A stretch of DNA of 64,000 bases, from assembly GCF_009914755.1 (NCBI RefSeq), contig NC_060944.1; one strand, written 5' to 3'. Source of the DNA: the human T2T-CHM13v2.0 reference genome, Homo sapiens. Of this stretch, positions 50,098 to 52,218 are shown piece after piece. The notes under the pieces are model-generated. The model was not told the DNA's origin and searched no databases. It saw only the letters and a list, made by a program, of their open reading frames with translations. The number at the start of each line of letters is the position of its first letter. Position 1 is the stretch's first letter. Made by a program: the position numbers and the translations under genes.

Positions 50098-50778
50098 TTA
50101 GAGTCTTGTCAAATGTGAGATTAGCCAAAGAGCCTCATCTTGAGAATTGAAAGTAAGTTTCCAGACCTCAGGTGCGACATTCTGACTGCCTTGAAGATAC
50201 AATGGGGTGGTGAACAACTGGACATTTGGGGCTTCCTGAAGGTGCTCAGGTGGACTATTTCTGGAACCCACTGAAGGTTTGAGTTTCTGTAAGAAGACTA
50301 GTTCTACTGTTGACACATTTTTCTTTTCTGGAACAACAACACACCTGAATTCACTTAAAGCATGGCATTTGATCACATCAAATTGTGCACCCGGAGGAGG
50401 TATGTTTCGAGATCGAATGCGTGGATAAAAAACACAGTCTTCCTTCACCAGTGCAATGTGGGTGTTCAGAAGGACTAGCGACTGGCACTGGTCATGGCCA
50501 GAGTCACCCATGACTTTCACTGTTGTGTAGAGCAGTAACTGAACTTCTGCCAGGGAAGGGACATTGACTTCCATATTTCCATGAAGAAAGTAAATCATGT
50601 CAACCAAGGTAGTCTGGAATTTGGATGACACCTGAACTCCATTTGGCAAAACTAAATCAGGGATTTCTGTTTTCCAATCAAGAGAAAGCTGAACCAGATC
50701 TTGCTGGAGCAAGGGATGATTAGCGCAGGCAGCGGCATCAGGCTCTGGCATCAGGACACACAGGAGGTCACGACACAG
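50098..50778 (-). CDS. KIF16B: KIF16B alternative terminal exon, short form (226 aa LCRDLLCVL...LISHLTRL*; replaces the PX domain)
   Basis: Acceptor ctctctcaacag|CTG at 50778 is phase 0. 1166+226=1392 aa matches the size I recall for a known KIF16B isoform. Stop TAA at 50098 is followed by several AATAAA. Confidence 0.85.
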   Translation of the reverse strand: [226 protein letters not shown]

Positions 50779-52218
50779 CTGTTGAGAGAGGTATTTGTTG
50801 TAACTGAATACAGTGAGCAGAAGACCCTCTGCAGAGCTCAGGAATCGAACACTCTGTCCACCAAAGCCAATCTGAATCTCCTGTAGACCAGAGAGAGGTA
50901 GAGCATGAAAAATGCTCATTGAGCCGAGATTATCTGACAGGACCAAAGCATATAAAGTTGACTGAAGCAGGAGCAAACACGCTGGTTGAGGGTCAGGTGC
51001 TGTGCAGGCAGCAACAGCAAGCCAGTAAATGCCTTTGACTTCCTTCATGTTGCCCAAAGGTTCTGGTAGAGAACAAGTCACATGCCTAAGAAGGTCTTTT
51101 AAAGGGCACTCTTGCAGTTTCAGCATTTGGTCCGGGAATTGCACAAGGCTCTGCTTAAATGCAGAGCTCTTTCTAGCATCTTCATATTCAAGGCGAAAAA
51201 CTGAGCTTGGCGAGGAACCTGGTAAACCTGTAGCTGCAAAGACAGAGGCCCGGTAAGGCGCCGCACCCTCTGCTGGCCTCAGGCTCCCTGCAGCTTCGCT
51301 CTCGCTGCTGCCAACCCGAGCTTCCGGAGAATGAGATTCTGTTGACTGCATGTCAGTCTTCAAGGGCATGTGTGGGGCTAAGTGCTTCAGAAATGGCAGG
51401 CTTCTGACGAATGTTGTTACCTGGGAGGGGAGCCCCCTCGGGGCACACAGATTCCCCACAAGCCTGGCTTGGCTGATCACCTTTGTGCCAGCCTGAAGCA
51501 GGTGACTGCTGGTATCTTTATAAAGGTCTGAGAACTTGTGGTAAAAATATCCCAGTCCATTGTTTCCTTCTGTTCTGATATTTACCAGTGACTCCGATGA
51601 GCTCATTTTTTTAGCATCCAACTCTTCCTCACCTTGCTGCTCACTATAAAACTCAGACGCCAGTACGCTCTGCGGGGCACTGCAGGATGCTCTCTCCTCA
51701 TGGGAAATGCCTTCAGACAGAACCAAGCAGAGCACCTTGCCTTGCCTGGCCTGCTTGCCTCCGCTATTTATAGACACTTCTTGGGACGTATGTTGCAGCA
51801 AAGTCCAACTGGACTTGACTCTCAAGCCATGTTTATCTTTATGAGTCATCAGCTCACTGAAATTTTCTGACTGACTCTGAAAATCTTCTGCATCATCGGT
51901 GTTACTTTCGTTAAGAAAAGAGATTTTAGGTAGATTAAAACATTTTGGTTCAAAATGGCCAGCATGCTCAGGATGACAATATTTGTTTTCACTGTCCTGG
52001 AATACCTCGGGTACTGAGGACTGATCCCTCTGCTGGTGAGTTCTCTCTTGTGATGCTGAGGAAGTTGTTTTAGGGCCTGAGACGCTCCACAGCATGGGAT
52101 GATCCCAGTGGTCGTTCTGATCCACCTCCCTCCTCTCCTCTTTAATGAGGCTGGAAGTGTCAGTGGCATCTCTGGGCAGAAGCGGGTCAAGATACCATGC
52201 TGGGCAAAACTGCCTTTT
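50098..52218 (-). CDS. KIF16B: KIF16B alternative terminal exon, predicted long form (706 aa; disordered linker plus two Nischarin-like PH-fold domains)
   Basis: Frame is open from 52230 to 50098 (711 codons including the stop). The acceptor ccccatttcaactttttttgacaccttgaacag|AAA at 52218 is phase 0 and lies just inside the upstream in-frame stop. Confidence 0.7.
   Translation of the reverse strand, partial: [706 protein letters not shown]

What the first reader, a model, noticed from the sequence alone, without database searches (positions are those of the whole stretch)
50101..51110. Alternative tail looks like the Nischarin C-terminal tandem PH-like (Rab/Rac-binding) module
Compared with human Nischarin as I recall it, there are colinear matches: [42 protein letters not shown] vs [51 protein letters not shown] vs [30 protein letters not shown] vs KTLLLTSSEIFLLDEDCVHYP; VELVF vs LTLVF; [21 protein letters not shown] vs [21 protein letters not shown]. 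The strand-rich pattern ending in a helix, twice (~51110-50750 and ~50620-50101), fits two PH-like folds. Established: Nischarin is a PX-domain endosomal protein whose C-terminal region binds Rab14, Rab4, Rab9 and Rac1, and KIF16B is reported to work with Rab14. Inference: this isoform fuses a kinesin motor directly to a small-GTPase effector module, a built-in cargo adaptor that I have not seen described.
Basis: partly seen in the sequence, partly recalled or inferred. Interest (0 to 1): 0.9.

Follow-up and report, generated by a model that had tools for sequence, protein, structure and literature searches.

The report
KIF16B alternative tail resembles Nischarin C-terminus
An alternative last exon of the human kinesin gene KIF16B swaps the usual lipid-binding PX tail for a two-part module related to the end of Nischarin, the region reported to bind Rab14 and Rac1, but the fold and any GTPase binding remain untested.

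Summary
Window 50098-52218 (minus strand) is an annotated alternative 3' terminal coding exon of KIF16B.

The similarity is well beyond chance:
- Pfam PH_NISCH_C hits the tail above its curated cut-off. Genome-wide it finds only NISCH and this exon.
- A 47-sequence mammalian tail profile scores 37.1 bits (E 1.7e-9) against a script-spliced NISCH C-terminus. The best of 2000 shuffles scored 4.4 bits.
- hhalign gives 96.5% probability over 299 colinear columns. Each half matches only its cognate NISCH half.

The tail belongs with the C-terminal domain shared by NISCH, STK11IP and SKIP/PLEKHM2. It is mutually exclusive with the PX domain.

Only the 1832-aa isoform has both halves. The 1392-aa isoform keeps only the second.

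The module is conserved from human to platypus. Public Pfam annotation already tags the second half, but I found no paper that discusses it.

The PH fold could not be tested because the structure predictor was closed. Rab/Rac binding is inference only. It rests on secondary citations that map Rab14 and Rac1 binding to the matching NISCH region.

Verdict: a new member of a known kind, of moderate interest.

The parts
49795..52218 (-). Alternative 3' terminal exon of KIF16B (coding part plus 3' UTR)
   Evidence: RefSeq NM_001410853.1 and three Gnomon models use the whole exon. The acceptor reads ...ttgaacag|AAAAGG at 52218. No masked repeat of 100 bases or more lies between window 44000 and 54250.
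50098..52218 (-). Coding part: 706 codons plus the stop codon at 50098-50100
   Evidence: Translation. It corresponds to residues 1127-1832 of the 1832-aa isoform.
51169..52218 (-). N-terminal half of the exon (exon aa 1-350): less conserved linker, no family assigned
   Evidence: Mean identity to human is 0.40-0.59 per 25-aa bin, except an island at aa 226-250. No Pfam family reaches threshold. No similarity to upstream NISCH exons: hhalign 0.6% and 0.3%.
50746..51048 (-). First PH-like half (PH_PLEKHM2-like), exon aa ~391-491
   Evidence: PF23142 scores 14.7-15.7 bits, below its cut-off of 22, on 50761-50988. 15 of 18 mammalian tails match it at E<=1, best 1e-5. This half alone against NISCH C-terminus residues 1-190 gives hhalign 81% (E 1.2e-5) and HMMER 26.6 bits; against the wrong half it gives 0.2%. 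The tail profile also hits an STK11IP exon at 11.1 bits.
50101..50667 (-). Second PH-like half (PH_NISCH_C), exon aa ~518-706
   Evidence: PF25625 scores 31-33.5 bits, above its cut-off of 27, on 50284-50493. 18 of 18 tails match. The genome-wide hit is 34 bits. This half against NISCH residues 191-398 gives hhalign 93.6% (E 2.1e-7); against the wrong half it gives 0.2%.
50194..50268 (-). Variable loop inside the second half (exon aa 651-675)
   Evidence: Identity drops to 0.42, with gaps in marsupials. NISCH has an unrelated insert at the same place in the hhalign alignment.
50101..50169 (-). Terminal strand plus helix ([23 protein letters not shown]), the most conserved stretch
   Evidence: Identity is 0.79-0.87, nearly invariant across 18 mammals. 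It aligns to the NISCH C-terminal helix segment.
50778..50779 (-). Internal splice acceptor used by NM_001199866.2 (1392-aa isoform)
   Evidence: The sequence reads ...ctctctcaacag|CTGTGTCGT. The isoform then begins at LCRDLL..., inside the last helix of the first half.
49810..49815 (-). ATTAAA polyadenylation hexamer, 15 nt upstream of the annotated exon end
   Evidence: Read directly.
18886..18975 (-). Downstream canonical exon encoding part of the PX domain, which the alternative tail excludes
   Evidence: PF00787 PX scores 23.2 bits against a cut-off of 21.6. Transcripts ending in the alternative exon do not reach it.

Best explanation
Window 49795-52218 (minus strand) is a conserved alternative terminal exon of KIF16B. 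Its last ~320 codons encode a homologue of the C-terminal domain shared by Nischarin, STK11IP and SKIP/PLEKHM2. The domain has two consecutive halves that Pfam names PH-like: a PH_PLEKHM2-type half followed by a PH_NISCH_C-type half. Its closest relative is NISCH.

Because transcripts stop in this exon, the module replaces the PI3P-binding PX domain. The 1832-aa isoform is therefore a kinesin-3 motor with a protein-type cargo-recognition tail instead of a lipid-binding one.

Shown: the exon structure, the homology, its conservation from human to platypus, and its mutual exclusivity with PX.

Inferred: the module recruits the motor to endosomal or lysosomal membranes by binding a protein partner. 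The most likely partner is a GTP-bound small GTPase of the Rab14 or Rac1 type, by analogy with the equivalent NISCH region.

My confidence by step: homology ~0.95; an alternative cargo or targeting role ~0.6; Rab14/Rac1 as the specific partner ~0.3.
For: Exon and isoforms: (isoforms of 1317, 1392 and 1832 aa).

Pfam:
- PF25625 scores 31-33.5 bits against a cut-off of 27, in 18 of 18 mammalian tails.
- Genome-wide it has only 2 matches, NISCH and this exon.
- PF23142 is matched at E<=1 in 15 of 18 tails, best 1e-5.

Profile against spliced NISCH:
- Shuffles reach at most 4.4 bits.
- hhalign 96.5%, 299 columns, 24% identity.
- Each half matches its cognate half only.

Conservation:
- All 120 listed homologues are mammalian KIF16B, including marsupials and platypus.
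- 68 of 387 alignment columns are invariant.
- The module is more conserved than the linker.

The PX domain is encoded downstream.

Literature:
- The mouse NISCH 1190-1593 fragment binds Rab14 and Rac1 (PMC5570507, passages).
- NISCH, STK11IP and SKIP share a C-terminal region (PMC3240744, passages; bioRxiv 10.1101/2021.08.27.457973, passages).
- KIF16B is a Rab14 effector (PMC10494930, passages).
Against:
- Pairwise BLASTP to the NISCH last exon is weak: 25% identity over 64 aa, E 1e-4 for that single comparison.
- The mammalian tail profile searched exon by exon over the whole genome finds only itself, as does the single-sequence search.
- In human the first half is below Pfam's cut-off, and the genome-wide PF23142 search did not return KIF16B or NISCH.
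- At 24% identity, binding specificity need not be conserved.
- The canonical PX isoform is already said to bind Rab14 through its own C-terminus, so Rab14 binding by the alternative tail is not required to explain the published data.
- STK11IP and SKIP, which share the domain, are not described as using it for Rab binding in what I read.
- The NISCH splice junctions were my own inference.
Confidence: 0.6

Rival explanations
1. The module is mainly regulatory. It folds back on the motor or stalk to autoinhibit or tune KIF16B, rather than recognising cargo.
For: A preprint (passages) cites Keren-Kaplan and Bonifacino 2021 for C-terminal PH domains of SKIP mediating intramolecular inhibition. 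The KIF16B tail shares the PF23142-type half with SKIP.
Against: The tail's closest relative is NISCH, not SKIP. Nothing here tests intramolecular contacts. The SKIP paper itself was not read.
Confidence: 0.2
2. The two PH-like halves bind membrane lipids or a transmembrane partner, giving the motor a different organelle address from PI3P endosomes without any GTPase.
For: Pfam names both families PH-like. The STK11IP preprint suggests a possible modest membrane affinity for its PH domain and reports lysosomal localisation through TMEM192 (passages).
Against: The tail did not match the canonical PH family at E<=10. In the preprint passages I read, a mutant that did not bind TMEM192 was not lysosome-localised and had variable localisation. 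No lipid-binding residues were assessed.
Confidence: 0.15
3. The similarity is chance, or the exon is a non-functional read-through or annotation artefact.
For: Pairwise similarity is low and the reciprocal genome-wide profile search found only self.
Against: - Pfam scores above the curated cut-off in 18 of 18 species.
- Shuffle controls.
- Cognate-half specificity.
- 55% identity between human and platypus over 362 aa, with invariant blocks.
- Two curated BestRefSeq transcripts.
- A good acceptor and a polyA signal.
Confidence: 0.03

Closest known systems
Nischarin (NISCH) C-terminal region, Pfam PH_NISCH_C (PF25625) plus the preceding PH-like half
   Same: Colinear alignment over 299 columns covers both halves and the terminal helix. 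The tail is the only other human locus hit by PF25625. The module sits at the C-terminus of the protein. The aligned NISCH region lies within the fragment reported to bind Rab14 and Rac1.
   Different: Identity is only 24%. In KIF16B the module is encoded in one exon, against five exon segments in NISCH by my splice inference. It is attached to a kinesin-3 motor rather than to PX plus LRR. The loops differ. Partner binding is untested.
STK11IP (LIP1) C-terminal domain, Pfam PF23142 plus PH_S11IP_C (PF25624)
   Same: The first-half strand motif is shared: the tail profile hits the STK11IP exon at chr2:220098371-220098787 with 11.1 bits. That is the same exon PF23142 hits.
   Different: PF25624 does not hit the KIF16B tail, either in Pfam scans or genome-wide. 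STK11IP is described as lysosomal through TMEM192.
SKIP/PLEKHM2 C-terminal PH region
   Same: The first half gives a sub-threshold PF23142 match. The literature groups the SKIP, NISCH and STK11IP C-termini together. SKIP is itself a kinesin adaptor.
   Different: SKIP has a canonical PH domain embedded between the related regions and recruits kinesin-1 in trans. Here the module is part of the motor polypeptide.
Canonical KIF16B PX tail, and the PH tails of other kinesin-3 motors such as KIF1A
   Same: Same motor and stalk, same position at the C-terminus, and presumably the same job of choosing cargo.
   Different: PX binds PI3P. The alternative tail has no PX, which is encoded only downstream, and no canonical PH match.

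Membership tests
NISCH/STK11IP/SKIP C-terminal domain family | Match to PH_NISCH_C (PF25625) above the curated cut-off | tested here: met
   31, 31.9 and 33.5 bits against a cut-off of 27; 18 of 18 mammalian tails, best E 1.3e-10. The match covers model positions 21-91 of 154 only.
NISCH/STK11IP/SKIP C-terminal domain family | Match of the first half to PH_PLEKHM2 (PF23142) above the curated cut-off | tested here: inconclusive
   Human scores 13.3-15.7 bits against a cut-off of 22. 15 of 18 tails match at E<=1, best 1e-5. Of the 120 listed homologues, 1 carries it precomputed (P0090). The genome-wide PF23142 search did not return KIF16B.
NISCH/STK11IP/SKIP C-terminal domain family | Colinear profile alignment to a bona fide member across both halves, each half matching its cognate half | tested here: met
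   hhalign 96.5%, E 9.9e-10, 299 columns. The halves give 81% and 93.6% against cognate halves and 0.2% against non-cognate halves. Shuffles reach at most 2.3%.
NISCH/STK11IP/SKIP C-terminal domain family | Reciprocal retrieval in the whole human genome | tested here: inconclusive
   In the forward direction, PF25625 finds only NISCH and KIF16B. In the reverse direction, the KIF16B tail profile and the single sequence find only self, because NISCH is scored exon by exon.
NISCH/STK11IP/SKIP C-terminal domain family | Two PH-like beta-sandwich folds, each capped by a C-terminal helix | not testable with these tools
No solved relative exists. The PH label comes from the Pfam names and from AlphaFold2 predictions cited in a preprint.
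Small-GTPase (Rab14/Rac1) effector module | Direct, GTP-dependent binding to the GTPase | not testable with these tools
   There is only an analogy: secondary citations map Rab14 and Rac1 binding to mouse NISCH 1190-1593. The primary paper is not held.
Canonical pleckstrin-homology domain (the general Pfam PH family) | Sequence match to the general PH model | tested here: not met
   No such family is listed at E<=10 for the exon or for either half. HMMER's filters drop most matches above E ~0.1, so a very weak match cannot be excluded.

The most novel reading that the evidence does not exclude
By choosing between two terminal exons, KIF16B switches between two cargo-recognition modes. One is lipid recognition through the PX domain, which binds PI3P. 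The other is direct recognition of a GTP-bound small GTPase (Rab14/Rac1-type) through a built-in Nischarin-type effector module, so the long isoform needs no separate adaptor.

The intronless layout of the module suggests it entered the KIF16B locus as a retroposed or otherwise captured copy of a NISCH-family C-terminus before the split of monotremes and therians.
Probability: 0.22. Interest if true: 0.75.

Novelty: new member of a known kind. Interest (0 to 1): 0.55.

Why it matters
The KIF16B papers I read treat its cargo binding as PX plus a Rab14 site in the canonical C-terminus. A conserved, curated isoform that lacks PX and carries a Nischarin-type tail would have a different address. 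Tools aimed at the PX-containing C-terminus, such as dominant-negative PX-tail constructs, would not report on it.

The link gives a concrete, cheap hypothesis to test: does the tail bind Rab14, Rab4 or Rac1 in the GTP form? It also adds a fourth human gene to the small NISCH/STK11IP/SKIP C-terminal domain family, whose biochemical function is still unclear.

Tried and rejected
No model, no fold search and no test of the PH fold were therefore possible.
- PDB by sequence: the tail, the tail profile, the NISCH last exon and an STK11IP exon gave no meaningful match. STING chains at E ~0.7 and a de novo design at E 0.059 are taken as noise. Pfam STING_TM appears in 2 of 18 tails at E 0.0098 and I also treat that as hydrophobic noise.
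- Direct genome searches with the tail and with its profile found only self.
- Pairwise BLASTP to the NISCH last exon is marginal.
- Extension of the homology upstream was rejected. The exon's first 350 aa show nothing against NISCH upstream exon pieces and no Pfam family.
- A transposable-element origin of the exon is not supported. There is no masked repeat of 100 bases or more between window 44000 and 54250.
- Distribution outside mammals could not be tested. One search listed 120 of 162 hits, so 42 were not shown. It left out 6668 candidates known from samples alone; searches left out 1673 and 6445.
- Literature: no paper links the KIF16B tail with NISCH or STK11IP. In one search, 3 papers hold both KIF16B and Nischarin; two are PX-domain reviews by their listing and abstracts, the third is a neuroanatomy paper, and I opened none of them. 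In one search, 1 paper holds both KIF16B and STK11IP; its one held KIF16B passage is a proteome table row. One search gave nothing relevant. Isoform-related hits say nothing about this tail.
- The primary Nischarin-Rab paper (Kuijl et al. 2013) is not held, and Ueno et al. 2011 was not read. Both are cited second-hand. Supplementary files were not consulted.
- My first splice-site scoring was ambiguous. I chose junctions that keep the open frame and the conserved peptides. A junction error of a few residues would not change the result.
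Full report
OBSERVATION. Translating window 50098-52218 on the minus strand gives 706 codons followed by a stop. The mechanical ORF list shows the same open frame. The last-exon ORF of NISCH is at L001 1372-1977, and the upstream exon pieces are L007 8297-8743 and 9238-9429.

ANATOMY. The annotation table shows that 49795-52218 is an alternative terminal exon.
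- NM_001410853.1 and three Gnomon models use it whole.
- NM_001199866.2 uses an internal acceptor at 50778.
- Computed protein lengths are 1317 aa (canonical PX isoform), 1392 aa (short alternative tail) and 1832 aa (long alternative tail, with the exon starting at residue 1127).
- The acceptors read ...ttgaacag|AAAAGG at 52218 and ...ctctctcaacag|CTGTGT at 50778.
- An ATTAAA hexamer sits 15 nt before the annotated end.

The downstream exon 18886-18975 matches Pfam PX (23.2 bits against a cut-off of 21.6). The alternative tail and the PX domain are therefore mutually exclusive. The short isoform begins at LCRDLL..., inside the last helix of the first half, and keeps only the second half. No masked repeat of 100 bases or more lies between window 44000 and 54250.

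HOMOLOGY TO NISCHARIN, POSITIVE EVIDENCE.
- Pfam PH_NISCH_C (PF25625) matches exon residues 576-645 at 31 bits, E 2.5e-7, against a cut-off of 27. On the 226-aa short tail it scores 33.5 bits.
- Searched over the whole human genome, that model has two matches only: the NISCH last exon (183.6 bits) and this exon (34 bits, E 4.6e-5).
- All 18 of 18 mammalian tails in alignment A1 match it, best E 1.3e-10. 15 of 18 also match PH_PLEKHM2 (PF23142) in the first half at E<=1, best 1e-5.
- I built a 47-sequence tail profile. I then spliced the NISCH C-terminus in a script from reference exons chr3:52522172-52522582 (only its 3' part was used), 52522979-52523135, 52523609-52523737, 52524256-52524417 and 52524776-52525383, giving 398 aa.
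- HMMER gives 37.1 bits, E 1.7e-9 at a database size of 20000. One aligned stretch runs from profile position 109 to 319.
- Of 2000 shuffles of the NISCH segment, 1026 returned a score and the best was 4.4 bits. The reversed sequence scored -1.4.
- hhalign gives 96.5% probability, E 9.9e-10, 299 aligned columns and 24% identity.
- Split in two, the first half matches NISCH 1-190 (81%, E 1.2e-5; HMMER 26.6 bits) and not NISCH 191-398 (0.2%). The second half matches NISCH 191-398 (93.6%, E 2.1e-7; HMMER 17.2 bits) and not NISCH 1-190 (0.2%). In 30 shuffles the best probability was 2.3%.
- The tail profile also picks out the STK11IP exon that carries the PF23142 match (11.1 bits, E 0.0034 among 567 pieces; compare).
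- The NISCH last exon itself weakly matches PH_S11IP_C, and a NISCH upstream exon weakly matches PF23142. This ties the three proteins and the KIF16B tail into one architecture.

NEGATIVE OR WEAK RESULTS.
- Pairwise BLASTP of the short tail against the NISCH last exon gives only 25% identity over 64 residues, E 1e-4 for that single comparison.
- Genome-wide searches with the tail sequence and with profile A1 return only the exon itself. NISCH is scored exon by exon there and falls below threshold.
- PF23142 is below its cut-off in human (13.3-15.7 bits against 22), and the genome-wide PF23142 search returns PLEKHM2 and STK11IP exons but not NISCH or KIF16B.
- PF25624 finds only STK11IP.
- No solved structure is related by sequence.
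- The exon's first 350 residues have no family and no similarity to upstream NISCH exons.

CONSERVATION.
- Three homologue searches returned only mammalian proteins among those listed. In one search, 162 proteins passed and 120 were listed. All listed are KIF16B or unnamed models from placentals, marsupials and platypus. The 42 unlisted were not seen.
- By my count by eye, 111 of the 120 listed rows already carry PF25625.2 as a precomputed Pfam domain. This includes the human 1392-aa isoform (P0111). One row (P0090) also carries PF23142.3.
- Human and platypus tails are 55% identical over 362 residues. 68 of 387 columns of A1 are invariant.
- Per-bin identity is 0.40-0.59 in the exon's first half, with an island of 0.79 at residues 226-250. 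It is 0.58-0.87 in the module, except for a loop at 651-675 (0.42). The terminal strand and helix are the most conserved part.
- This pattern indicates a protein under purifying selection since before the monotreme split. Whether it is older could not be tested.

LITERATURE (what I saw: search listings and text passages, not whole papers).
- PMC5570507 (Fig. 1 legend passage) states that Rab14 interacts with mouse Nischarin 1190-1593, and Rac1 with 246-1047 and 1190-1593. PMC11115306 says the same in general terms.
- PMC3976971 calls Nischarin an effector of Rab4 and Rab14. A 2026 preprint shows Rab14-Nischarin co-immunoprecipitation.
- The primary paper (Kuijl et al. 2013) is not held. I saw no statement on Rab9 or on the region that binds Rab4.
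- The last 404 residues of mouse Nischarin should correspond roughly to the 398-aa human segment I used. I did not align mouse to human, so this rests on counting from the C-terminus.
- The STK11IP preprint adds that AlphaFold2 predicts PH domains there, and cites work that SKIP's PH domains autoinhibit. KIF16B is not mentioned in it (0 occurrences).
- PMC10494930 describes KIF16B as motor, stalk, PX and a short extension, with Rab14 binding in the C-terminus according to Ueno et al. 2011. Another preprint treats KIF16B as a Rab14 effector.
- Searches for KIF16B with Nischarin (3 papers; by listing two are PX-domain reviews and one a neuroanatomy paper, none opened), with STK11IP (1 paper; its one held KIF16B passage is a proteome table row), and with isoform or tail wording found no discussion of this tail.

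MECHANISM.
- Shown: a conserved alternative terminal exon gives a kinesin-3 motor a Nischarin-family C-terminal module in place of PX.
- Inferred: the module is an alternative cargo or membrane-recognition device. The most economical guess is protein binding to a GTP-loaded small GTPase on endosomes. The equivalent NISCH fragment is reported to bind Rab14 and Rac1, and KIF16B already works in a Rab14 pathway.
- This step is analogy across 24% identity, and I rate it at about 0.3.
- Rivals are autoinhibition (as cited for SKIP), lipid or transmembrane-partner binding, and, much less likely, no function.

COMPARISON AND NOVELTY. The tail passes the sequence tests for membership of the NISCH/STK11IP/SKIP C-terminal domain family for its second half and for the colinear two-half alignment. 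The first half is sub-threshold in Pfam for human. The fold was not testable. It differs from all three known members in two ways. It is fused to a motor, and it is encoded in a single exon, whereas the NISCH module spans five exon segments and the STK11IP and PLEKHM2 matches are spread over several exons. Public Pfam annotation already labels part of it, so the similarity is not unknown to databases. I found no paper that notes it or studies the isoform. I therefore class it as a new member of a known kind.

LIMITS. Several things were not available or not done.
- There is no Atlas result.
- There are no non-mammalian data, no expression data and no primary paper for the NISCH-Rab mapping.
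- The NISCH splice junctions were inferred by me, and no supplementary files were consulted.

Noticed in passing
window 51469-51543 (minus strand; exon aa 226-250): There is a short, highly conserved island ([25 protein letters not shown]; mean identity 0.79) inside the otherwise poorly conserved first half of the exon. A sub-threshold Pfam DUF7799 match (12.7 bits against a cut-off of 27) covers aa 190-257. It might be a short linear motif or a helix. It is present only in the long isoform.
   Followed up: partly
window 50778 (minus strand): The internal acceptor used by the 1392-aa isoform cuts inside the first PH-like half, so the isoform that UniProt and NCBI list for human (P0111) has only the second half. 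Models of this short form appear in the list for primates and sciurid rodents only (66% query cover rows).
   Followed up: partly
window 50098-51048 compared with chr3:52522979-52525383 (L007/L001): The whole two-half module lies in one exon in KIF16B. It is split over several exons in NISCH, and the related Pfam matches in STK11IP and PLEKHM2 are also spread over exons. This would fit capture of a processed copy, or intron loss. It was not tested.
   Followed up: no
window 44000-54250: About 10 kb around the alternative exon has no masked repeat of 100 bases or more.
   Followed up: no
window 57209-57361 and chr20:16433047-16433079 (just outside the window): A 153-nt cassette exon and a 33-nt micro-exon are included or skipped in different combinations with either tail. 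The curated long isoform skips the first and includes the second.
   Followed up: no
window 50884-51096 (tail residues 49-119): There are weak, sub-significant similarities to STING transmembrane helices: PDB chains at E ~0.7 and Pfam STING_TM in 2 of 18 tails at E 0.0098. I take these as noise from a hydrophobic stretch.
   Followed up: partly
window 51849-52283 (minus strand): A 144-aa GTG-started ORF in another frame overlaps the start of the exon and its acceptor. There is no evidence that it is more than a mechanical ORF.
   Followed up: no
L007 5081-6511 (chr3:52520080-52521510, NISCH large exon): The NISCH exon upstream of the compared region has an acidic run followed by strand-like hydrophobic segments. 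It has no Pfam family at threshold and no similarity to the KIF16B exon.
   Followed up: partly
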